DNA of 64,000 nucleotides from IMG/VR virus record IMGVR_UViG_2897328257_000003. One strand, given 5' to 3'. Below are positions 1 to 11,538 of this stretch, piece after piece. Source of the DNA: a virus (lineage: Duplodnaviria; Heunggongvirae; Uroviricota; Caudoviricetes). The notes below the pieces were generated by a model, which searched no databases, had not been told where the DNA came from, and saw nothing but the letters and a program-made list of their open reading frames with translations. The stretch's first letter is position 1; each line of letters begins with the position of its first letter. The position numbers and the translations under genes are program-made.

Positions 1-1119
1 TTAAATAACCAACTTAACCCATTCCTGACCTCGGGTATCGTTATAGCGATCGGTGGTAGCCTGGACTTTATGTCCCAGTAATGTTTTTGTATCGACACCC
101 TGTGCGCGGTACAACCGTTCTGACAGGGAGCGTTGTTCATGAAATGTTGGCGGTGTTTTTCCTGCTGGTGGAATTATTCCAGCCAGATCTCGCGCTTTGG
201 CGAAGTAATCGCTCAGGTTGTCTTTACTCATCGGTTTTGGTTGTTTCTGGTGCCTACTATGGATTAGGTATGGACTCAACATTCTGTCCCTGCATCCATC
301 AATAACTTCTTTTAACGATACCCCAATTTCATCGCATCGTAGCGTAAGAGGTAAGGCCAGACGCATTCCGGTTTTTCCTTGGGTTATATGTAGATGTCCA
401 TTCCATACATCTGAAAAACGCATGTGGCAAATGTCATCACGGCGCTGACCAGTAACAATCGCAAGAAGCATTGCGTTACGGATAAAGTGTTTTTCTGGCG
501 TTGCATTATAAATTTTTTGCCAGTCTTCCAGGGTGAGTCTGGATCTGGTCACTTTAGGGATCGGTTTACGGGTAGCCTCCGGAGGATTCCATCCAGGAGG
601 AACTTCTCCCGCATGCTGTGCTTCTTTATAAATATCAACCCATAATCCGCGATTTACTCTTGCTGTGCTGACCATGTCTTTATCCATCCACTCGTCCAGT
701 ATTAATGCAAAGTCTCTTACCTCCAGTTCTTTCAATGGGTGGTTTCCCAGGCGGGAAACCAGGTATGCAGCCATTCGCACTTTTTCTTTGTGGGTTGTAG
801 CTGCAATGTCTCCATTTTTCAGTCGCGAATCCTGTATTTTCAGATATCGATCAACCCATGCCTTTAATCTGATACCCCGACGTTTTGTTGCTGACGGACT
901 TTCATCAATTTTGCGCATGAAATATTCAGCTTCTGCTGCAGCTATTCGCTGATTGGCTGTGGAAGCGATTTTTTCTGCCTTACCTTTGTCTGTTCCGAGT
1001 CCGTGAAATTTTCCAGTCACAGGATTTTTATACTGGTAGTAAACTCTGCCAGTTCTGCGATCAAACTTTTCGTAAAGACCGGCTACGTCAGTGCTGTTTT
1101 TTCGTGGCCTCGGTGACAT
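1..1119 (-). CDS. int: Tyrosine recombinase, lambda-type prophage integrase
   Basis: 372-aa ORF; C-terminal region (..PTFHEQRSLSERLY..LLGHKVQATTDRYNDTRGQEW..) parallels the lambda Int catalytic C-terminus as recalled; followed by an xis-like gene overlapping its start. Confidence 0.9.
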   Translation of the reverse strand: MSPRPRKNSTDVAGLYEKFDRRTGRVYYQYKNPVTGKFHGLGTDKGKAEKIASTANQRIAAAEAEYFMRKIDESPSATKRRGIRLKAWVDRYLKIQDSRLKNGDIAATTHKEKVRMAAYLVSRLGNHPLKELEVRDFALILDEWMDKDMVSTARVNRGLWVDIYKEAQHAGEVPPGWNPPEATRKPIPKVTRSRLTLEDWQKIYNATPEKHFIRNAMLLAIVTGQRRDDICHMRFSDVWNGHLHITQGKTGMRLALPLTLRCDEIGVSLKEVIDGCRDRMLSPYLIHSRHQKQPKPMSKDNLSDYFAKARDLAGIIPPAGKTPPTFHEQRSLSERLYRAQGVDTKTLLGHKVQATTDRYNDTRGQEWVKLVI

Positions 1120-1418: not shown

Positions 1419-3863
1419 TTAAAAATCAGCCTGACTCGGGATCAGTTTTTGCCAGATAGCTGAAACGTATTTTGCCTGGTAACGCGCATCGTGCAGGGCA
1501 TTATGGCGCTCACCCTCAAATGTGATGACACTTCGAGCATCGAAATCCATCACCAGTCCCAGAGCAACCATCGTTCTTACATCGCGATCATTGGTGTAAC
1601 GCCATGGGCAGGGGATCCCCTGCCGTTCATATGAACGGCGTAAAATTACGTTGTCAAAGTTGGCTCCATTTCCCCAGACCTGAACAAAAAATTCACCGGA
1701 GTTTTCGTCGATAAATTCCCGTAATTGCAACAGTGCGTCATCCAACGGGATTTCATCGGTCAGAATGGCTGATTGTGCTTCCCGTGACTGTTTCAGCCAC
1801 CACTTAATGGTGTCCCGATCGATGACTCCGCCCGCGGTTTCCAGATCGATAGTTTTGCTGAATTCTGGCCCCATCTCTCCGGTTGCCGGATCAAAAAACT
1901 TACCGGCCAGAGCGTTTATTGGCGCATCAGGATTTTTGCCCATTGTTTCAAGGTCAATCATCAGATGGTGCCACAACCTGCTGGTGGATGTGCTTTCGTG
2001 ATGACCGTTCACCTTAATTAAGGGATTTGCTGTCTCGCCTGTTTCATTATTGCCATTGGCATGTTGATCGCCTTCGGTACACTCCTTGTTCGGGTATACG
2101 GCACTTTCCATTTCCTCTGGATCTTTCTCCCGGGCTTCATCCTGGCTTTCTTCGTTGAATGTTTCCTGGTATGTTGCGTCGCCCATTACCGCGCCACAGT
2201 CAGGACAGTTGCCGTCGCCGGTCTGACCGCAGGCGTTGCAGACTTTTTCCGGTTCTTGTTGCTCTTCTGGTTCAGGCTGTTTCGTTTCTGGCTCGTTTTG
2301 TAACGCATTTGGGCTGTTTTGTTCCGCTTTCTGGTCGTTTTGTTCCGATTTGTGCTGGTTCTGGTTCACAGAGTCGCGGGTTTCAATCCCCTTCACCCAT
2401 TTCGGATCATTCGGGTCGCTAATCCCTTCAACAAATTCTCCGTGAGAAGCAGCCAGTAATTTATCTGCATCGACAGGATTTTTGGGGGGAATGTTTTTCC
2501 TGGCTTCATGGAGTTCTGCACGCAGTTTCTGATATTTCGCATCAACAGAATTTATCTGTGGCTGAGCATCCATCGACTGCGTGTCCTGATTATGTTCAGT
2601 TGTATCCGGTTCCACTGCTTCAGTCGTTGCCTGTTCATCTGCCATTGCGCCAGTTGGCTGCGGTTTTTCTTCATCATCCTGTTTTCCTTCTTTTGTTACA
2701 CGCTGCGGCATTGGAGCAGAGGAGCGACCGCAGGCAATATCCACGATTTCTGGATCAGGGTTGGCATGGTCGGTTTCGGTCAGTACTTTGTTCAGATATT
2801 CGGTAACACGGTGGGGAGTAGCCTCGATACCAATTGGTGCTTCTTTCACGGACGCAACCACTATCGCGCGGGAATAATCCAGGTGACCAGGCATGGCGAT
2901 GAATTTGTCACGAAAAACAGAAAAGGGCGGCTTATTCTCTGAAACGATTTCTTCAATGCGTTTGGCGTGTGCCGGATGTGGATTGTAAATATCGATGTCC
3001 ATTGAACGGGCCAGAACGCCAGCGGCAACGTCACGTTCCACTGACGCATCATCGTGGACAAAACCTTCACCGCGATCGGTAAGAATTCCTCCGCCAGCAT
3101 TAGCGCCGGATGGCGTGCGGCTGATGCGTAAAACACGATTTCCTTTCATCCACTCTTTTGTCAGCAGACCTCGATCGGTATAGTCAGCGTCCAGGTATGC
3201 TTCGAAAAAAGCAGTCATTAACCCCAGACTGGAATTAACGGGATTAGGGAAAACTTTGTCTGTGTCGCGTACCAGTTTGTGAAGGTCGCGAATCTCCAGC
3301 GGGTCGAGCAGCTTTGTGTTGTGGGAAATAGCCAGGGCAGTAACAGCAGGCAGTTCTTCAGCTCGTGCGATATGTAATGCCTGAAGTTCTTCCCGTGAAA
3401 CGTGCGTTACCGGTTTTTCGCTGCCATGTTGCGCAAGCCAGCGAATGGGCAGTTCCTGACCGGAAATCGGCAGGAGCATATTATCCTCAATCTCAGCCAT
3501 GTCTTCGCCATTGACGTTGGTATTGTCAGAGCTGGCTGGTTTGTCCTGAACTGAGGGGGAAGGCGCTATAAATATCATTGTGATGCCATCTTCCCCGCCT
3601 TTTTCATAGCGGTTGCAGAATTCAGTATCGAACACACCTTCAGGCGGCAGGTCATTAACAATGGGCAAATTCACGCGAACAGGTTTTTTGAAATCCTCTT
3701 CGTCAAATCCAGCATCGTCCATTGCGACAACACCCCGTGATATTGCAACCGATAATTTTTTTGCTGTGCGCCAGTAAAAACCGCCTTTAATCCCAAGGCG
3801 TTTTCTGACTTTGTCATTTTTGGCTTCGTAATACAGTGCAATTTCTTCTTTATCAGTGCTCAT
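1419..3863 (-). CDS. Prophage exonuclease (814 aa) with central acidic/Gln-rich low-complexity region, Cys4 zinc-ribbon (CNACG..CPDCG) and C-terminal DEDD-type 3'-5' exonuclease-like domain; resembles proteins annotated as exodeoxyribonuclease VIII-like in E. coli prophages
   Basis: Long uninterrupted ORF in the early-left position next to xis; C-terminal motifs (..MIDLETMG.., ..HNALHDARY..) match DnaQ-like exonuclease signatures by eye. Confidence 0.7.
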
Positions 3864-3955: not shown

Positions 3956-4144
3956 TTATCCAGCCGGTATTTCGTTATTCAGGTACAGCGATACTTTGTT
4001 TAACGGGAGACATTCACCGGAAATTTTTTGCTCGTCTCTTGCCTGATGGCAGGATTCTTTACTGGCATAAATTCCGGTAATCACATTCTGTGGCTCACCT
4101 GTTATAAGAAAAACCGTCATCATCAGTGCAAACGCTGAACTCAC
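3956..4144 (-). CDS. Hypothetical small early-left protein (62 aa, hydrophobic N-terminus)
   Basis: ORF on the same strand directly upstream of the exonuclease gene; no recognised family. Confidence 0.4.
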   Translation of the reverse strand: MSSAFALMMTVFLITGEPQNVITGIYASKESCHQARDEQKISGECLPLNKVSLYLNNEIPAG

Positions 4145-4329
4145 TGCTGCCCTCCGAAAATGCCAAGTTCAAGAAGGGCAATTCTGGAGAGTATGGAATT
4201 ATCATTGAGAAGATAAGGCTCATATTTTCTCATCCTGATGGCGTCCTCAGTAAACTCCCGGTTACTGAGCAGAATACCAATATTAAAACACCCTTCAGAC
4301 GTATTAACGTTTGGTAGTGACGTTTCCAT
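4141..4329 (-). CDS. Hypothetical small early-left protein (62 aa)
   Basis: ORF with a 4-nt overlap to the downstream small ORF; start lies inside a sequence duplicated across an N-run, so the exact 5' context is uncertain. Confidence 0.35.
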   Translation of the reverse strand: METSLPNVNTSEGCFNIGILLSNREFTEDAIRMRKYEPYLLNDNSILSRIALLELGIFGGQQ

Positions 4330-4527
4330 TATCGCGTCCTCAACAATGAATTTTGTGATGTGGTGCCTGGTGCCTCCAGGTGACGTTAACCAGTTAACAA
4401 TTAACGCCGGANNNNNNNNNNNACGTTTGGTAGTGACGTTTCCATTATCGCGTCCTCAACAATGAATTTTGTGATGTGGTGCCTGGTGCCTCCAGGTGAC
4501 GTTAACCAGTTAACAATTAACGCCGGA
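4307..4527. repeat. Exact ~105-bp direct duplication flanking a ~10-nt N-run (approx. 4412-4422); probable contig-join artefact
   Basis: Sequence acgtttggtagtgacgtttccattatcgcg...ttaacgccgga occurs identically on both sides of the N-run. Confidence 0.6.
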
Positions 4528-4997
4528 TTGTTAGTTGATGTCTGTTACGCCAGTAAAAGACCGCTTGTTTTAACTGTTCCGCGTGCGCTTAGCCGCATTC
4601 ACCGCATCACAAAATACACTTTAAAAATGGCGGATATCCATTTCCGCCGAATCACCAGAAAAGTGATAACAGAGGTTGTTGTGGCGGTGTTGTCACTCAG
4701 GCGTATGGTCAACCTGACAACCCGGTGCATTTTCTGGAGCAATGGAGGAAGCCCCAGCCATACTTACCGCCGCGCCATTTCGCGGATTGCCACAACCGGA
4801 AGCGCACGATCGAATTACATTTAACGACGACATATACAGAGAGACTAACTTCGCCGAGCGCTTTCGTGTTGTGTGCCTGCTTTTAACCACGTCAGGCGAG
4901 GTGGACCTGTTATTCCCCAACAACAAGGAGCTTGTTAATCTGGATATCCCCAACAACAATAAGAGTATTGAATGTGATCGCTGAATTAACGGCAGCA

Positions 4998-5489
4998 ATG
5001 ACGGCTATTCGTGAAACCGCTCAGATTACAAAACTAATGAACGAGGCAAAAACTCAAGCTGAAGTAAATGCGGCTATTGGTGAACTGAACTCAAAGCTTG
5101 CATCTATTCAGCACGAATGCGTGTCTCTCGTTGAGCTGGTGAGCACTTATCAAGAAATAAATGCTTCTCTCAAAGCTAAAATTGCAGAATTTGAAAACTT
5201 TGAGGCTCAGACGGAAGGTTATATCCTTAACCAACTTGAGTCGGGAACTTTTGTGTACTCGAAGGAGGTAACCGTGAACGGCGGCAGCATAATCATGCAT
5301 CTTTGTCCAAAATGTTTTGGACAAAAGATAGTATCGATACTTCAACCATTCCCGGTTAGAGAACATGAGTTTTTTCATAAAAGCAGGTGCCTCTACTGTG
5401 AAAATCAGTTTCTTATGAATAAAAATCCGGATTATGTATCGCCTCCATCTATTGAGGAGTTGGCCAGAAAACTGAACGGCAATCTGTAG
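4998..5489 (+). CDS. Hypothetical moron protein: N-terminal coiled-coil-like region plus C-terminal Cys4 zinc-ribbon (CPKC ... CLYC); alternative starts GTG 4974 or internal GTG 5274
   Basis: ORF on the strand opposite to the early-left genes, AT-rich relative to flanks, preceded by ~470 bp of non-coding DNA; internal in-frame AAGGAGGT (5262-5269) plus GTG (5274). Confidence 0.55.
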   Translation: MTAIRETAQITKLMNEAKTQAEVNAAIGELNSKLASIQHECVSLVELVSTYQEINASLKAKIAEFENFEAQTEGYILNQLESGTFVYSKEVTVNGGSIIMHLCPKCFGQKIVSILQPFPVREHEFFHKSRCLYCENQFLMNKNPDYVSPPSIEELARKLNGNL

Positions 5490-5602
5490 ATTGTTACTGT
5501 TATGGATATCCAGATTGTTAAAGAGCATGCCGGATGCTTGCTTGTGTCCGGCGCGTGTGCACCAGTTCTCCCCGTGGAGGATTCCTTAACTACCAGACTT
5601 CA

Positions 5603-5755
5603 TTAGTCAGAGTTTCTTGCTAACCAGCGACGCGCGCCAGCTTCAGTTTTAAACGTTTTGCTTCTGGTATACGTCATCGCGGTAAACGTGCCGTCCTGGT
5701 TGGGGAATACTCCGCATACCAGAGATTCGTTGTTGCCAAGATTGAGCGTATCCAT
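5603..5755 (-). CDS. Small protein (50 aa), YdaF/DUF1391-like as recalled
   Basis: Hand-translated ORF MDTLNLGNNESLVCGVFPNQDGTFTAMTYTRSKTFKTEAGARRWLARNSD; below the ORF-track size cut-off; position downstream of the repressor matches the Rac ydaF/ydaG locus. Confidence 0.45.
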   Translation of the reverse strand: MDTLNLGNNESLVCGVFPNQDGTFTAMTYTRSKTFKTEAGARRWLARNSD

Positions 5756-5791
5756 GTTGACCTCATTTGCCCTTAACGCCGGGTCGCGGAA

Positions 5792-6016
5792 CTAAAAACC
5801 TGCTGCGCTGTTATACAAAGTGTTCCCGCCGTCATGTTCATACGCCTCGGGCTGGCTACTTAACCCCTGACCACTGCCTGGTAACTCGAAGTATTGCCTG
5901 GCGTTCTGTGGGGCGGGGTGGGTTGGTGATATAATGTACCTGCTGTTCATTAATGTAAAGTACTTTTGGTACATTTTTGTGAGGGGTAAAATATCAGGAG
6001 GGGATGAGAGGAGCAT
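5792..6016 (-). CDS. Hypothetical ORF (74 aa) downstream of the repressor; weak RBS, may be non-coding
   Basis: ORF only; no recognisable Shine-Dalgarno sequence; no family recognised. Confidence 0.25.
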   Translation of the reverse strand: MLLSSPPDILPLTKMYQKYFTLMNSRYIISPTHPAPQNARQYFELPGSGQGLSSQPEAYEHDGGNTLYNSAAGF

Positions 6017-6050
6017 AAACCCGGAGGGAAGCTACCGGATTTATGCAGAT

Positions 6051-6470
6051 TCAGGAGGCTTTTTGTTTTTTCTTTCGCGCTAATTCTTCATAAATTGCGT
6101 TGTACTTCTGTTTTTTCTCCTCAAGAGTTTTTAAAAGTTCATCAGTTTCACTGTCAGGGAGTTCATCAAGAAGTTCAATGATGATTTTTTGCTTCGGACT
6201 TAACTCCTGATAGAAACGCAGGCTTCCGCTTTCTTCAGTGTCCTCCCCCAGAAGGTAAGTTGGTGTTGTTCCGATAAGTGCTGCCAATTCTTTCAGTTTC
6301 TCTCGACGGGGAATTGCCTCTCCATTAAACCATTTACTAACCGCTTTGGGTGTTAGCTTCATTCGACGGGCAATTTCTGCCTGCCTTCCGTGTTGTTCAA
6401 AGCCAGCATTTTCACAGGCTAGCGCAAGCCTGCTGGCGAACTCTTTACGCGCTTCATCTTCATGAACCAT
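6051..6470 (-). CDS. Prophage repressor, XRE-family HTH, DicA/RacR-like
   Basis: 139 aa; N-terminal HTH (..QAEIARRMKLTPKAVSKWFNGEAIP..) and C-terminal ..LSPKQKIIIELLDELPDSETDELL.. closely parallel DicA as recalled; divergent from a cro-position gene. Confidence 0.85.
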   Translation of the reverse strand: MVHEDEARKEFASRLALACENAGFEQHGRQAEIARRMKLTPKAVSKWFNGEAIPRREKLKELAALIGTTPTYLLGEDTEESGSLRFYQELSPKQKIIIELLDELPDSETDELLKTLEEKKQKYNAIYEELARKKKQKAS

Positions 6471-6549
6471 AAGTTCAATGATATTTGCTATTGAATGTAC
6501 TGTCAGTTCTGTTATATTGTGTACTCAAAGTTCACATTGTGAGGGTGAT
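6471..6549. promoter_or_regulatory. Divergent promoter/operator region of the immunity switch (repressor vs cro-like gene)
   Basis: 79-bp AT-rich intergenic region between divergent start codons, with repeated TGTAC-containing half-sites (..aatgtactgtcag..tgtgtactcaa..). Confidence 0.5.
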
Positions 6550-6816
6550 ATGAGCCATACAACACTTGCAGATGTAATCAAAGCAGTTCGCGTTTCTGTT
6601 GTAGCCGATGTTTGCGGTGTCAGCCAAAGAGCAATCTACAAATGGATGAATAATGGAAAATTACCGCGCACAGAATATACAGGCGAAACAAATTACGCTG
6701 AAAAAATTGCTCTGGCATCAAACGGATTATTTTCTGCTGATGCGGTTTTGACTATTGGCAGGATTAAGCCTACAGCGAATGAATCACTGGCGGTGAACAA
6801 TGAAAATCACCCCTGA
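6550..6816 (+). CDS. Cro-position HTH protein, YdaS/DicC-like
   Basis: 88 aa from ATG 6550 preceded by GAGGG; HTH-like ..VADVCGVSQRAIYKWMNNGKLP..; divergent from the repressor. Confidence 0.7.
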   Translation: MSHTTLADVIKAVRVSVVADVCGVSQRAIYKWMNNGKLPRTEYTGETNYAEKIALASNGLFSADAVLTIGRIKPTANESLAVNNENHP

Positions 6817-7351
6817 ACAGGTTTGTGAGGCTCTGGATGCCTGGGTATGCCGACCAGGAATGACACAGGAGCAGGCGACGATATTAATCACGGAAGCATT
6901 CTGGGCTCTGAAAGAACGCCCGAACATCGATGTTCAACGCGTCACGTTTAATGATGGCGAGGTTGATCAACGGGCGCTGGGCGTTAATCGAGTGAAGATA
7001 TTCGAACGCTGGAAGGCTATCGACACCAGGGATAAGCGTGAAAAATTCACGGCGCTGATTCCGGCAATTATGGAGGCTATCCGGGTAAGTGATTTCAGGT
7101 TGTATTGTGAAATTACTGACGGAAAAAGCATTACGTACATGATCGCCGGGTTAAACAAAGAGTATGGCGATGTGGTGGAGTCCGGGCTGCTTTTTGCGGA
7201 TCCAGTTGTTGTGGAACGTGAGACTGATGAGCTTATAGAAAAAGCCATTGCTTTCAAGCGTGCGTATCGTCAGCAATACCAACATTACTTTGCAGATAAA
7301 CAAATATCTGTCTGGGGTTCGTATGAGTATCGATGCACTACGATGGGCTAA
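6800..7351 (+). CDS. YdaT-like protein (Rac ydaT family as recalled; proposed CII-analogue/toxic protein)
   Basis: 183 aa overlapping the end of the ydaS-like gene; segment ..DKREKFTALIPAIMEAIRVSDFRLYCEITD.. resembles YdaT. Confidence 0.6.
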   Translation: MKITPEQVCEALDAWVCRPGMTQEQATILITEAFWALKERPNIDVQRVTFNDGEVDQRALGVNRVKIFERWKAIDTRDKREKFTALIPAIMEAIRVSDFRLYCEITDGKSITYMIAGLNKEYGDVVESGLLFADPVVVERETDELIEKAIAFKRAYRQQYQHYFADKQISVWGSYEYRCTTMG

Positions 7352-8360
7352 AAAGGTGAAAACCGGCAGTTCATCCAGTAAGTCAGTATTGACCTGGCTT
7401 GCTGATATGTGCGGTGCCGATTTGTGCGCATACCCGTCTATATCTGCACTGGCAGAAGTAACGGAACTGAACAAAAAGACTGTGCAGGACAGTTTACGAC
7501 ACCTGATGGAGATTGGGTTAATTGTTGATACTGGTGAGAGAAAAGGCAGAACAAAGCAAATTGTGGTGTACCGACTTATCGGTGTAGAAGAAAGTGTTGC
7601 CGAGCCTGAATACACCCAAAAACGGGAGTCTTTAAAGGTGGGTAAAATTGGTACTGTTAATAAAAATAGTACCGAAAATGGTTATGTTTCAGCACAAAAC
7701 AGACCCAAAAACGGAACTCTTAGCTGCATGGAAAATAACCAAAGACACCCAAATTTTCCATCAAAGACACCCAAAAACGGATCACGGAACCCAAAGGAAC
7801 CCAAAGATCTAAACCCCACACATAACGCACGCGAGAGTGCTCCGACCAGTGAGCAGGAAGTTTTGTCGTTACAGGCAGCGCCCCCTGTATTCTTGGATGG
7901 CCTGAGCGAACCCATCGGGAAATTTTCGATGACTACTGTCTGGCAGCCGTCGCTGGATTTTCGACAACGGGCAGTAGTGTGGGGTATGGCTCTGCCTGAG
8001 CCGGAATTTACACCTGCAGAGCTTGCCGCATTCCGGGATTACTGGATGGCGGAGGGGAAGGTTTTCACGCAGGTTCAGTGGGAGCAGAAATTTGCCCGTC
8101 ACGTGCAGCACGTCAGGGCACAGGTAAAACCAGTCAGCAAGGGGGTAAGCCATGCAGCATCAGGTGGCACGGCATCACGGGCAGTTCAGGAAATCCGGGC
8201 AGCACGCGAACAGTGGGAACGTGAAAACGGATTTATCAGCAACGGAAACGGCCTGGAAGCTGTGGGAGCTTATGGGGGAGGTGTATTCGAACCGCTGGAC
8301 TCAGAAGAATGGGGCCGCACCTTCGAAGCTCTGGATTGCCCAGATTGGTGCGATGACTGA
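7323..8360 (+). CDS. Replication initiation protein: N-terminal winged-helix DNA-binding domain, low-complexity linker, C-terminal DnaT-like domain
   Basis: C-terminal ..GKFSMTTVWQPSLDFRQRAVVWGMALPEPEFTPAELAAFRDYWMAEGKVFTQVQWEQKFAR.. closely parallels E. coli DnaT as recalled; iteron-like repeats inside the linker-coding DNA. Confidence 0.7.
   Translation: MSIDALRWAKKVKTGSSSSKSVLTWLADMCGADLCAYPSISALAEVTELNKKTVQDSLRHLMEIGLIVDTGERKGRTKQIVVYRLIGVEESVAEPEYTQKRESLKVGKIGTVNKNSTENGYVSAQNRPKNGTLSCMENNQRHPNFPSKTPKNGSRNPKEPKDLNPTHNARESAPTSEQEVLSLQAAPPVFLDGLSEPIGKFSMTTVWQPSLDFRQRAVVWGMALPEPEFTPAELAAFRDYWMAEGKVFTQVQWEQKFARHVQHVRAQVKPVSKGVSHAASGGTASRAVQEIRAAREQWERENGFISNGNGLEAVGAYGGGVFEPLDSEEWGRTFEALDCPDWCDD
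7650..7810. repeat. Putative prophage replication origin: AT-rich palindrome followed by iteron-like direct repeats inside the replication gene
   Basis: GGTACTgttaataaaaatAGTACC palindrome; repeats gacccaaaaacggaac (7702-7717) and cacccaaaaacggatc (7768-7783), agacaccca x2, ggaacccaaag x2; analogous to lambda ori within O. Confidence 0.45.
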
Positions 8361-8814
8361 ACAGCAAATCCGTCTGGTCTGCCGTCAGTGCATGGACCGC
8401 TGCCGGGCGGGTGAAACGTGGCCCCCGGACCTGGCTGAGTTTGTTGCGCTGATTTCGGAGAGTGGGGCAAATCCATTTGGTCTTACGGTGGATGCCGTGA
8501 TGGAAGAGTACCGGCGCTGGCGCAATGAATCCTGGCGATACGACGGGAGTGATAAATACCCGTGGCCACAGCCTGTGCTGTACCACATCTGCCTCGAAAT
8601 GCGTACCAGAGGGATTGAGCGCCAGATGACGCAGGGTGAGTTAAAACGACTTGCGGAACGGCAACTGACGAAATGGGCAAAGCATGTTGGTAACGGGATG
8701 AGTGTTCCGCCAGTGCGACGACAACTGGAAGGGGCGAAACACCCGAAAGGGCCAACGCCAATTGAACGGCTGAAACAGGAATACGAACGCCGGAAGGCTG
8801 CTGGTTTTATTTGA
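8152..8814 (+). CDS. Lambda P-like replication protein (DnaB helicase loader family)
   Basis: 220 aa; strong RBS AAGGGGG before ATG 8152; ..TWPPDLAEFVAL.. and ..YPWPQPVLYHICLEMRTRGIERQMTQGELKRLAERQL.. parallel lambda P; overlaps the previous ORF by ~209 nt in another frame. Confidence 0.7.
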   Translation: MQHQVARHHGQFRKSGQHANSGNVKTDLSATETAWKLWELMGEVYSNRWTQKNGAAPSKLWIAQIGAMTEQQIRLVCRQCMDRCRAGETWPPDLAEFVALISESGANPFGLTVDAVMEEYRRWRNESWRYDGSDKYPWPQPVLYHICLEMRTRGIERQMTQGELKRLAERQLTKWAKHVGNGMSVPPVRRQLEGAKHPKGPTPIERLKQEYERRKAAGFI

Positions 8815-8847
8815 ATCTGGGAAACGATTTTGTCGGAGGAAATTTTA

Positions 8848-9564
8848 ATGGAAACCGTATTTGACGCACTGAAAGCACTGAAAAGAGCCTCTTCACAGGT
8901 AGTGGCGGCCCGCCTTGGAATCAGCCGTGAAGATGCGGTCAACGAACTGTGGAAACTGAAGCGCCGTGGTGAAGCGGATAACAAGGGGTCGATGTGGTGG
9001 CTGACTCAGGCAGGTGAAAGTGAACCAGTGTCACCGGTACCGAAAGTGACAGCGCAAATGCTGACTGAGGCGATTGAACAACATGGCCCACAAACGGCGG
9101 ATGAGCTGGCACTTATGTTCGGGATTACCTCCCGCCGGGCGAATTCATCGCTGGCCATGGCAATCAGCAAAGGGCGTCTGATTCGCGTAAATCAGGGCGG
9201 TAAATTTCGTTACTGCATACCGGGCGCTGATTTACCGGCAGAGCCGGAAGCTGCATCCGTAGCGGAAACCGATGGTAAAGCCTTTCCTCAGCCAGCAGGT
9301 GTTGCGTTACCAGTCCAGGAAACGACGACACAGGAAGAAATGAAAACAGAAATCGTGGAAGACATTGTGAAGTTACAGCCATCGGTCACCGAAACGAAAG
9401 CAGATAACCTGATTCTACCATCGCTGCATGTGGCTAACCGCGAGCTGCGCCGGGCAAAAGGTCAGGTTCAGAAGTGGGAGCGAGTCTGCGCCGCGCTGCG
9501 GGAGCTGAACAAGTGCCGGGATATTCTCTGGGATATTACCGCCACCAGAGAACAGCAGCGGTGA
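8848..9564 (+). CDS. Hypothetical prophage protein with two winged-helix-like segments (DUF1627-like as recalled)
   Basis: ATG 8848 preceded by GGAGGA at good spacing; ORF track places an upstream TTG at 8830. Confidence 0.55.
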
Positions 9565-9878
9565 GTGGGTGGAAGACGTGGTGCCGGGCTGAAATTCTGA
9601 TACTCCGGCAGTGCGCGGGAACAATGAAGGTAAAAAGCATTGGCGCACTTATCGGACGAACTGAAGCGGCAGTGAGAACGAAGGCACGGGAGTTGGGCAT
9701 CAGCATGATGTTACGTGGTGATTTTCACCCGTCGGCAAAATATTCTCAGCGTGATATTGAGCTGGCGCGGCAACTGCATCAGAGAGGCATGCAAAGAAGG
9801 GAAATTGCCAGAAAATTAGGCATGCCGCTGCGCATAGTGAATAACTACGTTTATTTCGACAGGAGGGTTCAGGCGTGA
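9561..9878 (+). CDS. Small DNA-binding protein with GcrA-like N-terminal HTH and a second sigma-70 region-4-like HTH
   Basis: GTG start overlapping the upstream stop (GTGA); pattern W..E.L....G.....I...+G.T.AV..K...LG resembles the GcrA N-terminus. Confidence 0.45.
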
Positions 9879-10180
9879 GGGTGAGCATTTATATCGCCGG
9901 TCCAATGACGGGATATGAAAATTTCAACCGCGAGGCGTTTCACAGGGCGGAAGAAGCACTGAAACGGGAAGGGCATACCGTTTTAAACCCGGCAGTACTT
10001 CCGGACGGGCTGACTCAGCCGCAGTACATGGATATTTGCATGGCAATGATTCGTTGTGTGGATGCGGTTTATATGCTGAAAGGCTGGCAGCGATCGGCAG
10101 GCGCTAAGGCAGAACTGGCACTGGCGGAGAAACTGGGACATGCGGTTATTTTCCAGGAGGCAACCAGTGAGCGAAATTAA
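9875..10180 (+). CDS. DUF4406-like protein (nucleoside 2-deoxyribosyltransferase-like fold family)
   Basis: 101 aa; GTG start after AGGAGGG with overlapped upstream stop; N-terminal ..VSIYIAGPMTGYENFNREAF.. is the characteristic motif as recalled. Confidence 0.65.
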   Translation: MRVSIYIAGPMTGYENFNREAFHRAEEALKREGHTVLNPAVLPDGLTQPQYMDICMAMIRCVDAVYMLKGWQRSAGAKAELALAEKLGHAVIFQEATSERN

Positions 10181-10329
10181 TTACCAGGAGCTACGGCAGG
10201 TGAAAGAGAAAGCATAATCCAGATCTGAATAATTAAAATCAGCACTGTAAATAAAATTTAATCCTTAACCGGAGGGATTTCTGCACCCTCAGAACATCAG
10301 GAGACCGCCAGAAAGGGCGGTAATGAAAA

Positions 10330-10698
10330 ATGACTGAATTAACAAAAGAGCAATTAATCAAAGAAGCCAAATTAAAAATAGCGGTTGCGAAATGTTACCC
10401 TAATTCAGAGATGGCCAGGGTAGAGGGAGAGCTATTCAAAATTGCACTGGCATCGCTGGAGGCGGTTCCGGTGGCATGGCTGCATTCAGACAATGGCCTG
10501 GGTATTCCAGCAATAACCAGGAGTAAAAACGTTGCTGATAGTTGGTTATCAAAGGGCTGGTATGTTCAGCCGTTATATGTAGCCCAACCTGTACCGGTGG
10601 TGCCGGATGCTCGTCCATCTTTAAATAATGGCATTGTCGGATTTGATGAAGGCTGGAATGCCTGCCGGGATGCCATGCTTAATGGAGATAAATCATGA
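10330..10698 (+). CDS. Hypothetical protein (122 aa), first gene of a coupled three-gene module; C-terminal ..EGWNACRDAML.. motif
   Basis: ORF after a 150-bp AT-rich intergenic region with promoter-like sequence and a hairpin just before the start; stop overlaps the next start (ATGA). Confidence 0.6.
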   Translation: MTELTKEQLIKEAKLKIAVAKCYPNSEMARVEGELFKIALASLEAVPVAWLHSDNGLGIPAITRSKNVADSWLSKGWYVQPLYVAQPVPVVPDARPSLNNGIVGFDEGWNACRDAMLNGDKS

Positions 10699-11396
10699 TT
10701 AATCGTATCAAACTGGAGCACATCCTCGAATATGCCGGGCAGCAGAGGCATATTGGTCAGCATTGTAAAATTCCACCAGGAGATATGGTTGAAATCATGG
10801 AGATTGCCATGCGCAAGGCTGGCAACCCTCCGGTAACTCCGGGGCGTTTGCCTGGCGGTTTCACCATTGAGGAGGCGAAGGAGTTACATGAAGACCTGGT
10901 GCGCAGCCACATAAGCAAGGCTTTAAGTGGCGAAAAGATGAAGAAGAAGGATCTCGATGCTGATTTGCGCTGGATCCATGGGGTTATAGTCCAGGCCGCC
11001 TGGTTTGTAAAAGCATCACTGGAGCAGAATGTGCTAACGGGTAACTCTCAGGTAATCCCTGATGACGGTCGCGAACAGTTTGAAACACTTATCAGGTTCC
11101 ATGCAGATGATAAAAACCATGAAACATTATTGCTTCGTGCTAACGAAGGGATGAATTACCGGGATCCAAATGTGGATTTGGCATGGATATTCTGGAAATC
11201 CAGTCGAGAGCACATATTGCCTGGAAAAAGCGACAATAATCCAGCATCAGGCGATCAGGTAAGTGAATTAACAATGTGGGTGAAGCGGTTATCTCATTCC
11301 TTAAAAAGCGTTAATAAATCAAGCAAACTACCGGATAAAGCGATGGACTACCTGAAGCGAAACGGACTGATAAACGAGGAGAATATTTTACGATGA
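10695..11396 (+). CDS. Hypothetical protein (233 aa), second gene of the coupled module
   Basis: ATGA overlaps with both neighbours; no recognised domain. Confidence 0.6.
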   Translation: MINRIKLEHILEYAGQQRHIGQHCKIPPGDMVEIMEIAMRKAGNPPVTPGRLPGGFTIEEAKELHEDLVRSHISKALSGEKMKKKDLDADLRWIHGVIVQAAWFVKASLEQNVLTGNSQVIPDDGREQFETLIRFHADDKNHETLLLRANEGMNYRDPNVDLAWIFWKSSREHILPGKSDNNPASGDQVSELTMWVKRLSHSLKSVNKSSKLPDKAMDYLKRNGLINEENILR

Positions 11397-11476
11397 CCTG
11401 GCCTGAAGCGTTCATAACGGTAGGAATTGCAATGGCGGTGGCGCTGGTGGTGTATTCGATTTGCCGCTGGGGATAA
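11393..11476 (+). CDS. Putative 27-aa hydrophobic (single transmembrane-like) peptide, third gene of the module
   Basis: Hand-translated MTWPEAFITVGIAMAVALVVYSICRWG; start overlaps the upstream stop (ATGA); below ORF-track cut-off. Confidence 0.3.
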   Translation: MTWPEAFITVGIAMAVALVVYSICRWG

Positions 11477-11538
11477 AAACGGTTTGCGGGGAAAGAAGAG
11501 TTAAGTAGAATTGCTGCGGGTGCTTGAGGCTGTCTGCC

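What the first reader, a model, noticed from the sequence alone, without database searches (positions are those of the whole stretch)
7650..7810. Iteron-like repeats and AT-rich palindrome inside the replication initiator gene (putative prophage ori)
The linker-coding part of the DnaT-like gene contains direct repeats (gacccaaaaacggaac / cacccaaaaacggatc ~66 bp apart; agacaccca twice; ggaacccaaag twice in tandem), preceded by the palindrome GGTACTgttaataaaaatAGTACC. This mirrors lambda, where ori iterons lie inside the O gene, and the encoded peptide here is a low-complexity linker, as expected if the DNA is constrained by binding-site function.
Basis: partly seen in the sequence, partly recalled or inferred. 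Interest (0 to 1): 0.35.

Follow-up and report, generated by a model that had tools for sequence, protein, structure and literature searches.

The report
Lambda-style replication origin inside initiator gene
The repeats are very probably the binding sites (iterons) of a prophage replication origin that sits inside the phage's own initiator gene, as in phage lambda; it is a well-supported but fairly ordinary example of a known design, in an initiator family where it had not been described.

Summary
The repeats are real. The 12-mer ACCCAAAAACGG occurs exactly three times (7614, 7703, 7769). ACCCAAA occurs 6 times on one strand in 7614-7805, against 9 in the whole window. They lie in the predicted disordered linker (aa 88-195) of a 345-aa initiator (7323-8360): N-terminal winged helix plus C-terminal DnaT ssDNA-binding domain, followed by a lambda-P-like loader gene.

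The constraint is on the DNA, not the peptide. Copy 1 is read TQKR and copies 3 and 4 PKNG. In 48 non-redundant homologues from Escherichia to Vibrio and Acinetobacter, 119 copies of CCCAAAAACGG lie at gene nt 261-534 in all three frames (81/24/14). Synonymous-codon permutation gives 39 ± 5, and 208 kb of flanks hold 4.

Divergent initiators carry different repeats at the same place. A protein-blind motif scan of viral contigs landed just downstream of this winged-helix domain in 75 of 80 cases. One exception is a true lambda-O-family gene with the same iteron core.

A second conserved element follows the iterons: three 12/13-mers, GAAYCT..CA.., usually the gene's least stable DNA. Here it is 7786-7815.

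The palindrome is chance-level and absent from the common E. coli allele.

Verdict: a lambda-type intragenic origin, supported by comparison only; no experiment shows that it fires.

The parts
7323..8360 (+). Replication initiator gene (345 aa): N-terminal winged helix, disordered linker, C-terminal DnaT-like ssDNA-binding domain
   Evidence: ORF and translation. Pfam DnaT PF17948 at 3e-16 and a weak HTH_36 hit. PHROG 1032 'replication initiation protein' at 1e-88. AlphaFold2 model.
7323..7583 (+). Coding region of the winged-helix DNA-binding domain (aa 1-87), the presumed iteron reader
   Evidence: AlphaFold2 gives four helices (H3-11, H17-30, H40-47, H51-64) and a beta-hairpin (E67-74, E80-85), pLDDT about 60-83. 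Homologues hit HTH_36 at 1e-10 to 1e-15. PHROG 'replication initiation O-like' hits at 2e-10.
7608..7630 (+). Iteron 1, GAATACACCCAAAAACGGGAGTC (core 7615-7625), translated as TQKR
   Evidence: Weight-matrix score 32.4 bits. Exact 12-mer. Read in a different frame from iterons 3 and 4.
7632..7671 (.). Least stable 40-mer of the 5800-9600 region.
   Evidence: Nearest-neighbour dG -43.9 against a mean of -55.3, sd 4.1. Palindrome at chance level and absent from the three other E. coli alleles aligned. Alignment with EPP-1.
7664..7686 (+). Iteron 2, degenerate: AAATAGTACCGAAAATGGTTATG (core 7671-7681)
   Evidence: Weight-matrix score 14.9 bits, fourth best in the window. The O45 allele reads ACCGAAAACGG, closer to consensus.
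7697..7719 (+). Iteron 3, AAACAGACCCAAAAACGGAACTC (core 7704-7714), translated as PKNG
   Evidence: Weight-matrix score 30.7 bits. Exact 12-mer.
7740..7760 (+). Variant site CAAAGACACCCAAATTTTCCA, the positional counterpart of the CCCAA(A/T)TTTGG site that precedes the last iteron in relatives
   Evidence: Repeat family D2. The same position in EPP-1, L089, L090 and L093 reads ACACCCAATTTTGGAGG.
7763..7785 (+). Iteron 4, AAAGACACCCAAAAACGGATCAC (core 7770-7780), translated as PKNG; overlaps GATC at 7780
   Evidence: Weight-matrix score 27.4 bits. Exact 12-mer. GATC position.
7786..7815 (+). Three ~10-bp units GGAACCCAAA / GGAACCCAAA / GATCTAAACC. This is the local, shortened form of the conserved triple 12/13-mer (GAAYCT..CA..) that follows the iterons in the family; a candidate unwinding or helicase-loading element
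   Evidence: Tandem Repeats Finder. GAAYC-N5-8-GAAYC in 37 of 48 homologues at gene nt 381-565 (two also carry a further match downstream, at nt 542 and 871), against 4 hits in 208.7 kb of flanks. Usually the least stable DNA of the gene. Loss of one unit splits the gene in strain CFSAN027350.
7803..7803 (.). Mosaic junction: homology to the Rac-type YdaU C-terminal module begins here, so the winged helix and the origin travel as one cassette
   Evidence: The megablast match to Rac-SA53 starts at query nt 481. Rac YdaU has a DUF1376 N-terminus and no iterons.
7923..8123 (+). DnaT-like ssDNA-binding domain (aa 201-267)
   Evidence: Pfam PF17948. pLDDT 80-89. Foldseek hits to DnaT 6aeq and 4ou6, 56-57% identity, TM 0.9.
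8353..8814 (+). Lambda-P-like helicase loader gene, overlapping the initiator stop codon
   Evidence: Pfam Phage_lambda_P PF06992 at 3e-15. PHROG 109 'P-like helicase loader' at 8e-54.

Best explanation
Window 7608-7815 is the replication origin of this lambdoid, Rac-like prophage, embedded in the linker-coding part of its initiator gene.

Shown by computation:
- There are four iterons with consensus rAAyAnnCCCAAAAACGGnA (a short CCC/GG(G) dyad around an A5 tract), plus one or two decayed or variant copies.
- They are followed by a triple short-repeat element.
- Both elements are conserved as DNA, independently of reading frame, in the same place in a large family of phage and prophage initiators.

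Inferred mechanism:
1. Early rightward transcription from the cro side runs through ydaS-ydaT-initiator-P, as pR transcription does in lambda.
2. The N-terminal winged helix (aa 1-87) binds the iterons. Together with their intrinsic A-tract bends this builds an O-some-like complex.
3. Stress from that complex melts neighbouring low-stability DNA. In most relatives this is the 12/13-mer plus A-tract element 3' of the last iteron. In this allele the weakest DNA is 7632-7671, inside the array.
4. The C-terminal DnaT-like domain holds the exposed single strand and/or docks the P-like loader (8353-8814), which delivers host DnaB.

The winged helix and the origin form one specificity cassette. It recombines with different C-terminal and loader modules.
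For: - Clustering and weight-matrix scores in the window.
- Different frames within one gene: TQKR against PKNG.
- In 48 non-redundant homologues, 119 copies of the core (at most 1 mismatch) lie on the coding strand at gene nt 261-534, in frames 81/24/14.
- Synonymous-codon permutation gives a mean of 39.2, sd 4.6, maximum 50 in 200 trials. The 208.5 kb of flanks hold 3 forward and 1 reverse hits.
- Divergent lineages have their own repeat at the same site. Acinetobacter: AACAGTnCCAACAAYGGAAC with a 17-bp period. Halodesulfovibrio: GTCCCAAAAGTGGGAC. Desulfovibrionaceae: CCCCCGAACnnGGTTC or CCCCCGCCGGAAACGG with 17/22-bp periods.
- A protein-blind scan of IMG/VR for two cores 6-25 nt apart hit at least 120 contigs. 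In 75 of the 80 fetched, the winged-helix domain is encoded within 600 nt upstream on the same strand.
- A genuine lambda-O-family (PF04492) initiator, L188, carries five TTACCCAAA(A/T)(A/T)CGGGTAA iterons followed by an AT-rich tract.
- Lambda's own iterons lie at O-gene nt 349-433, just after its DNA-binding domain, in frames 0, 2, 2, 1.
- The second element and the stability minimum coincide.
- The linker is predicted disordered, pLDDT below 35.
- A P-like loader gene lies next door. Partner genes vary with the C-terminus: P-like, DnaB, primase-helicase, DnaC-like.
- The mosaic junction falls at the end of the origin.
Against: - There is no experimental evidence here for binding, unwinding or initiation.
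- In this allele the 3' element is shortened (10-bp units, about 50% GC) and is not the stability minimum. Iteron spacing is irregular (56, 33, 43, 23 bp) compared with relatives (17-33 bp). One unit has decayed.
- PPompW prophages, whose initiator N-terminal and linker part (aa 1-165) is 98% identical to this window's, are reported to be packaging-defective (PMC8112680). This copy may therefore be a relic.
- The N-terminal domain is not a Pfam Phage_rep_O member. Direct profile comparison with lambda O is insignificant.
Confidence: 0.72

Rival explanations
1. Relic origin. The sites are homologous to a real origin of this phage family but no longer fire in this (probably defective) prophage, persisting only by descent.
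For: - Decayed unit at about 7636-7657, degenerate iteron 2, shortened GC-richer 3' element and irregular spacing.
- The common O157 allele has a mutated iteron 3, CCCAAAAACAG.
- One strain has lost a 10-bp unit, which frameshifts the gene.
- PPompW prophages are reported defective for packaging.
Against: - The initiator and P-like ORFs are intact here.
- Three iterons are perfect matches to the family core.
- The module is kept at 95% identity or more in 907 of 5426 complete E. coli genomes.
- The reported defects lie in late genes, while early regions are 'relatively well conserved'.
Confidence: 0.15
2. The repeats are initiator-binding sites used mainly for control (autorepression, transcriptional roadblock or handcuffing), while initiation occurs elsewhere.
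For: Iterons in plasmid systems also serve copy-number control (general knowledge of iteron plasmids). The sites lie inside the transcribed initiator gene.
Against: - No other repeat cluster exists in the unmasked early region 4000-11500.
- In most relatives the array is directly followed by the gene's least stable DNA.
- The layout matches lambda, where these sites are the origin.
Confidence: 0.07
3. The repeats are a peptide-level, low-complexity linker (PKNG repeats made by slippage) with no DNA function.
For: - The PKNG/PENG frame is the commonest, 81 of 119 copies.
- tblastn aligns the linker across distant phages.
- The linker is predicted disordered.
Against: - The same 11-mer is read in three frames: PKNG, xQKR, PKTx.
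- 17-, 22- and 25/26-bp periods are not multiples of 3.
- Codon permutation gives only a third of the observed copies.
- Pro is coded CCC in the AT-rich Acinetobacter phage AP22 copies inspected.
- A motif-only DNA scan finds the same gene context.
Confidence: 0.04

Closest known systems
Phage lambda ori-lambda (iterons ITN1-4 plus AT-rich tract inside gene O, with P as helicase loader)
   Same: - The iteron array lies immediately after the DNA-binding domain, inside the linker-coding part of the initiator gene.
- Iterons are read in several frames (lambda: 0, 2, 2, 1).
- Iteron design is alike, a short C-rich/G-rich dyad around an A-tract: ATCCCTCAAAACGAGGGA against ACACCCAAAAACGGGA.
- A penultimate AAATT-type variant site is present in both.
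- A low-stability tract lies 3' of the iterons in the family.
- A P-like loader gene lies downstream, with the same cI-cro-...-O-P order.
   Different: - The N-terminal domain belongs to Pfam HTH_36, not Phage_rep_O.
- The C-terminus is a DnaT ssDNA-binding domain rather than the lambda O C-terminal domain.
- The iteron arms are 2 bp shorter.
- The 3' element consists of three conserved 12/13-mers rather than a plain AT-rich tract.
- In this allele the weakest DNA lies within the array.
DopC/DopE of Cellvibrionales and Oceanospirillales (Brezellec et al. 2017, PMC5509034)
   Same: The same two-gene architecture: an HTH_36 N-terminus plus a DnaT C-terminal domain, next to a lambda-P-like protein.
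   Different: DopC/DopE are resident chromosomal genes, and those authors found no iteron-like sequences in them. Here the pair lies in a prophage (integrase, RecE-like exonuclease, cI/cro) and keeps the iterons. It looks like the mobile, origin-bearing form of that architecture.
Rac prophage YdaU/YdaV replication module (with oriJ)
   Same: Gene order ydaS-ydaT-ydaU-ydaV. The C-terminal DnaT-like half and the P-like gene match at about 86% DNA identity.
   Different: Rac YdaU has a DUF1376 N-terminus and no iteron array in its gene. Homology starts only at window position 7803.
Iteron plasmid origins (RK2 oriV/TrfA, pPS10 RepA, staphylococcal RepA_N)
   Same: Winged-helix initiator, 17-24-bp direct repeats, and an adjacent unwinding element made of short repeats (13-mers in RK2; my own knowledge). 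There are weak fold hits to RepA_N initiators.
   Different: There the origin lies beside, not inside, the rep gene, and usually has DnaA boxes. No sequence-level family relationship was shown here.

Membership tests
Lambda-type intragenic phage origin | Array of at least 3 direct ~18-bp repeats with an internal dyad and A-tract, inside the initiator gene just after its DNA-binding domain | tested here: met
   Four sites score 14.9-32.4 bits at 7608-7785; the domain ends at about 7583.
Lambda-type intragenic phage origin | The repeats are constrained as DNA, not as peptide | tested here: met
   Three reading frames, a codon-permutation z-score of about 17, and non-triplet periods.
Lambda-type intragenic phage origin | Repeat sequence co-varies with the initiator's DNA-binding domain | tested here: met
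   Distinct repeat cores in the Acinetobacter, Halodesulfovibrio and Desulfovibrionaceae clades, at the same gene position. This is qualitative; no residue-to-base covariation analysis was done.
Lambda-type intragenic phage origin | Easily melted AT-rich tract directly 3' of the last iteron | tested here: inconclusive
   In 40 of 48 homologues the gene's stability minimum lies in the iteron/linker stretch (gene nt 250-560); in about 30 of these it falls on the 12/13-mer plus A-tract element just 3' of the last iteron. In this window the minimum is 7632-7671, inside the array, and 7786-7815 is of average stability.
Lambda-type intragenic phage origin | Helicase-loader gene (P-like) immediately downstream | tested here: met
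   PF06992 at 3e-15; PHROG 109 at 8e-54.
Lambda-type intragenic phage origin | The initiator binds the repeats and replication starts there | not testable with these tools
   Needs EMSA or footprinting, an origin-plasmid assay, or marker-frequency analysis.
Lambda O protein family (Pfam PF04492 Phage_rep_O) | N-terminal domain matches PF04492 | tested here: not met
   No PF04492 hit; weak HTH_36 instead. Lambda O itself hits PF04492 at 6e-36. hhalign against lambda O gives probability 4%. There are only remote PHROG 'O-like' hits, 2e-10 to 1e-4.
DopC/DopE (domesticated lambdoid O/P pair) | HTH_36 plus DnaT C-terminal domain protein next to a P-like protein | tested here: met
DopC/DopE (domesticated lambdoid O/P pair) | Resident, non-prophage chromosomal context without iterons | tested here: not met
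   Prophage context (integrase, RecE-like exonuclease, cI/cro) and iterons present.
Rac YdaU family (DUF1376 plus DnaT) | DUF1376 N-terminal domain | tested here: not met
   Only the C-terminal half is shared; Rac-SA53 YdaU hits PF07120 and the window protein does not.

The most novel reading that the evidence does not exclude
The triple 12/13-mer GAAYCT..CA.. may be a previously undescribed, sequence-specific unwinding or helicase-loading element shared by a very large family of phage origins.

- Units 1 and 3 are usually 25 bp apart.
- The units are read in different frames.
- An A-tract often follows.

It is conserved even where the iterons have changed completely (Desulfovibrionaceae). It may therefore be read by something other than the iteron-binding surface: the single-stranded form bound by the initiator, or a conserved host factor.
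Probability: 0.3. Interest if true: 0.55.

Novelty: new member of a known kind. Interest (0 to 1): 0.36.

Why it matters
- It places a probable origin in a prophage module present in about one sixth of complete E. coli genomes (909 of 5426), including the PPompW prophages of STEC.
- It shows that the lambda design (origin inside the initiator gene, with the linker peptide a passenger) extends to the HTH_36 initiator family. The iteron core is almost unchanged from Enterobacterales to Vibrio and Acinetobacter.
- It provides the mobile, iteron-bearing counterpart of the domesticated DopC/DopE pair.
- It gives a simple DNA signature (iteron core plus triple 12/13-mer) for annotating origins in phage genomes.
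- It gives a clean test bed for initiator-iteron co-evolution.

Tried and rejected
- **Palindrome as an origin feature:** rejected. It is at chance frequency, absent from the common E. coli allele and not found in relatives.
- **Direct profile comparison with lambda O:** insignificant, probability 4%.
- **Fold search for the N-terminal domain:** only generic winged-helix hits at E about 1e-2, so no specific family could be assigned from structure.
- **RNA element:** no Rfam match at E of 1 or below in 5500-9500.
- **Other repeat clusters that could be the origin in the unmasked early region:** none found.
- **Literature:** searches for the motif, for iterons with DnaT-like initiators and for phiV10/epsilon15 origins found no description of this origin. 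Papers in subscription journals were not searchable, for example the epsilon15 and phiV10 genome papers and Weigel & Seitz 2006.
- **Rac oriJ:** considered, but Rac YdaU lacks this N-terminal and iteron cassette.
- **GATC/Dam regulation:** both GATC sites of the gene lie at the 3' end of the array, and GATC is frequent in the Enterobacterales origin regions but rare in Acinetobacter. This is suggestive only.

Full report
**Context.** The window's left arm is the early region of a lambdoid, Rac-like E. coli prophage.
- Integrase, 1-1119, minus strand.
- RecE-like exonuclease, 1419-3863, minus strand.
- cI-like repressor, 6051-6470, minus strand.
- Cro/YdaS-like HTH protein, 6478-6816.
- YdaT-like protein, 6800-7351.
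- A 345-aa protein, 7323-8360.
- A lambda-P-like protein, 8353-8814.

Bases 11540-52026 are masked with N. The 345-aa protein has a weak HTH_36 match at its N-terminus and a DnaT domain at aa 201-267. Its best PHROG match is 'replication initiation protein', with remote 'replication initiation O-like' hits for the N-terminal 95 aa.

An AlphaFold2 model built on 16 homologues gives three parts:
- a winged helix at aa 1-87, with four helices and a beta-hairpin, pLDDT about 60-83;
- a segment of pLDDT below 35 across aa 88-195 (window 7584-7907);
- a confident DnaT fold.

Foldseek matches the DnaT fold to DnaT ssDNA-binding domain structures 6aeq and 4ou6 at 56-57% identity. The finding therefore lies in the DNA coding for the disordered linker.

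**Checking the observation.**
- ACCCAAA occurs 9 times in the window, and 6 of these are on the + strand within 7614-7805.
- ACCCAAAAACGG occurs exactly three times, at 7614, 7703 and 7769.
- A 23-nt weight matrix trained on 116 copies from other genomes, with the window excluded, scores 32.4, 30.7 and 27.4 bits at 7608, 7697 and 7763, and 14.9 bits at 7664. The next best score anywhere in the window is 7.8 bits.

The palindrome GGTACT-N12-AGTACC exists but is not meaningful.
- Such 6-bp inverted repeats occur once per 133 bp here.
- The three other E. coli alleles aligned (O157:H7 86-24, O45:H2 FWSEC0003 and CFSAN027350) read GGTGCT.
- More distant relatives have nothing like it.
- Its arms are the flanks of two repeat units. 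One unit has decayed: KVGKIGTV here against KTPKNGAV in Edwardsiella phage EPP-1.

**DNA or peptide?** Within this one gene the same 12-mer is translated as T-Q-K-R (copy 1) and as P-K-N-G (copies 3 and 4).

tblastn with the N-terminal 165 aa found relatives in phages of Edwardsiella (EPP-1), E. coli (phiV10), Vibrio anguillarum (H20 group), Acinetobacter (AP22 group) and others. Each has 3-6 copies of the same core in the same part of the gene, spaced 17-33 bp apart. A scan of GTDB species representatives added 60 loci, from Enterobacterales to Pseudoalteromonas, Marinomonas and Desulfovibrionaceae.

In 48 non-redundant genes:
- There are 119 copies of CCCAAAAACGG (at most 1 mismatch), all on the coding strand and all at gene nt 261-534.
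- They are distributed 81/24/14 over the three reading frames, read as PKNG, xQKR and PKTx.
- Permuting synonymous codons within each gene leaves a mean of 39.2 copies (sd 4.6, maximum 50 of 200 trials).
- The 208.5 kb of flanking DNA holds 3 forward and 1 reverse copies.
- Repeat periods of 17, 22 and 25/26 bp are common.

A peptide-level explanation cannot produce this pattern. Lambda behaves the same way: its four annotated iterons start at O-gene offsets 348, 368, 392 and 415, which are frames 0, 2, 2 and 1.

**Specificity and linkage to the initiator.** More divergent N-terminal domains come with different repeats at the same position:
- many Acinetobacter prophages: AACAGTnCCAACAAYGGAAC;
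- Halodesulfovibrio: GTCCCAAAAGTGGGAC;
- two Desulfovibrionaceae: CCCCCGAACnnGGTTC and CCCCCGCCGGAAACGG.

Conversely, a protein-blind scan of IMG/VR for two cores 6-25 nt apart hit at least 120 contigs. In 75 of the 80 fetched, the winged-helix domain is encoded within 600 nt upstream on the same strand. The five exceptions are informative:
- One is truncated.
- Two have the gene on the other strand. The core is nearly palindromic (CCC-N6-GGG), which points to dyad recognition.
- One is unrelated GC-rich repetitive DNA.
- One (L188) is a genuine lambda-O-family initiator (PF04492, 1.5e-31). It carries five iterons TTACCCAAA(A/T)(A/T)CGGGTAA followed by an AT-rich tract.

L188 links this iteron type directly to lambda-class origins. 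This holds even though the window's own N-terminal domain is HTH_36-like, not PF04492, and a direct profile comparison with lambda O is insignificant.

**A second conserved element.** In 37 of 48 genes the last iteron is followed by short repeats matching GAAYC-N5-8-GAAYC. The flanks hold only 4 such matches in 208.7 kb. Typically there are three units, GAAYCT..CA.., spaced 12+13 or 13+12 bp and therefore read in different frames. An A-tract often follows.
- Acinetobacter: CGGAATCTATCAAAGAATCTACCAATAGAATCTAAAAATAAAAAA.
- Vibrio phage H20: CAGAACCAGTCATTAGAACCAGTCATAGAACCAAG.
- phiV10: AACCAGTCATAT three times.

The element persists even where the iterons have changed (L131, L140, L143). In 40 of 48 genes the least stable 30-mer of the whole gene lies in nt 250-560, and it is usually this element.

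It is shorter and more GC-rich than in relatives. Here the least stable DNA of the 5800-9600 region is 7632-7671, between iterons 1 and 2.

**Modularity.** Megablast homology to Rac-SA53 ydaU starts at query nt 481, which is window position 7803, exactly at the end of the origin. Rac YdaU has a DUF1376 N-terminus and no iterons. E. coli proteins with other N-termini (DUF1376, 'phage replisome organizer') share the C-terminal half at about 90% identity.

Across the family the winged-helix and iteron cassette is joined to different C-termini (DnaT-like, Phg_2220_C, others). It is followed by different partner genes: P-like, DnaB, Toprim-DnaB primase-helicase or DnaC/IstB-like. This is the classic split between an origin-specificity module and a helicase-recruitment module.

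**Relation to known systems.** The design is that of ori-lambda, with iterons and an AT-rich tract in the middle of gene O (PMC7466680). The protein architecture (HTH_36 plus DnaT C-terminal domain, next to a P-like protein) is the one described for the domesticated chromosomal pair DopC/DopE. Those authors found no iterons there (PMC5509034). The window carries the mobile, iteron-bearing form. I found no paper describing this origin, but subscription literature was not searchable.

**Is it active?** This is unknown.
- The module is present at 95% identity or more in 907 of 5426 complete E. coli genomes.
- Its N-terminal and linker part is 98% identical to that of the PPompW prophages of STEC. 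Those are reported to be packaging-defective, although their early regions are relatively conserved (PMC8112680).
- Alleles differ within the origin. O157 has CCCAAAAACAG in iteron 3.
- Strain CFSAN027350 has lost one GGAACCCAAA unit, which frameshifts and splits the gene.

**Verdict.** The repeats are a lambda-type origin, or at least its direct descendant, inside the initiator gene. The kind of system is well known. What is new is its extension to this initiator family and the conserved triple 12/13-mer.

Noticed in passing
window 11540-52026: About 40.5 kb of the window is a run of N (masked). It produces spurious 13,500-aa 'ORFs' in all frames in the ORF list.
   Followed up: yes
window 4307-4527: An exact 105-nt direct duplication (4307-4411 and 4423-4527) flanks an 11-N gap (4412-4422). 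This looks like a scaffolding or assembly artefact rather than biology.
   Followed up: partly
window 2278-2351 (- strand gene 1419-3863): A 21-bp tandem repeat, 3.5 copies (TGTTCCGCTTTCTGGTCGTTT), lies inside the RecE-like exonuclease gene. Its reverse complement gives the best off-target iteron weight-matrix score in the window, but only 7.8 bits.
   Followed up: no
L147 (E. coli CFSAN027350), equivalent to window 7786-7795: One copy of the GGAACCCAAA 10-mer is missing. This frameshifts the initiator, which is annotated as two pieces: an HTH protein and a DnaT-like pseudogene. The tandem unit is therefore slippage-prone.
   Followed up: yes
L188 2700-2860 (IMG/VR contig 3300023215_001397): A genuine lambda-O-family (PF04492) initiator gene carries five iterons TTACCCAAA(A/T)(A/T)CGGGTAA followed by an AT-rich tract. 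The core is the same as in the HTH_36 family, which suggests a common iteron ancestry for the two initiator families.
   Followed up: partly
L177 ~5500-5720 and L220 ~7810-8030 (coordinates on the reverse-complemented locus for L177): In these contigs the iterons are inverted relative to the gene and to the 12-mer element: they read CCCGTTTTTGGG in the gene's sense. Single inverted copies also occur as the last site in L085, L087 and L116. This fits a near-palindromic CCC-N6-GGG recognition site.
   Followed up: partly
window 7780-7783 and 7806-7809: The only two GATC sites of the 1038-bp gene lie at the 3' end of the iteron array. Enterobacterales homologues are GATC-rich in the origin, with AAAGATCT as the third unit. 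Acinetobacter homologues have GAATCT there. This may indicate Dam/SeqA control; it was not tested.
   Followed up: partly
window 7748-7759; lambda L145 1079-1096: The site before the last iteron is a conserved AAATTT-type variant: CCCAAATTTTCC here and CCCAATTTTGG in relatives. It parallels lambda's third iteron (CAAATTGGGGGA), which also differs from its neighbours in the A-tract.
   Followed up: no
window 8152-8814 and 8353-8814: The P-like protein is short, 153 aa, matching only positions 53-161 of the 162-position Pfam P profile. A longer 220-aa ORF starts at 8152 inside the initiator gene. PHROG 15931 spans both the initiator C-terminus and the P-like protein, so fused forms exist elsewhere.
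   Followed up: no
window 7323-7351: The initiator start overlaps the end of the ydaT-like gene by 29 nt, and its stop overlaps the P-like start by 8 nt. This suggests translational coupling along ydaT-initiator-P.
   Followed up: no
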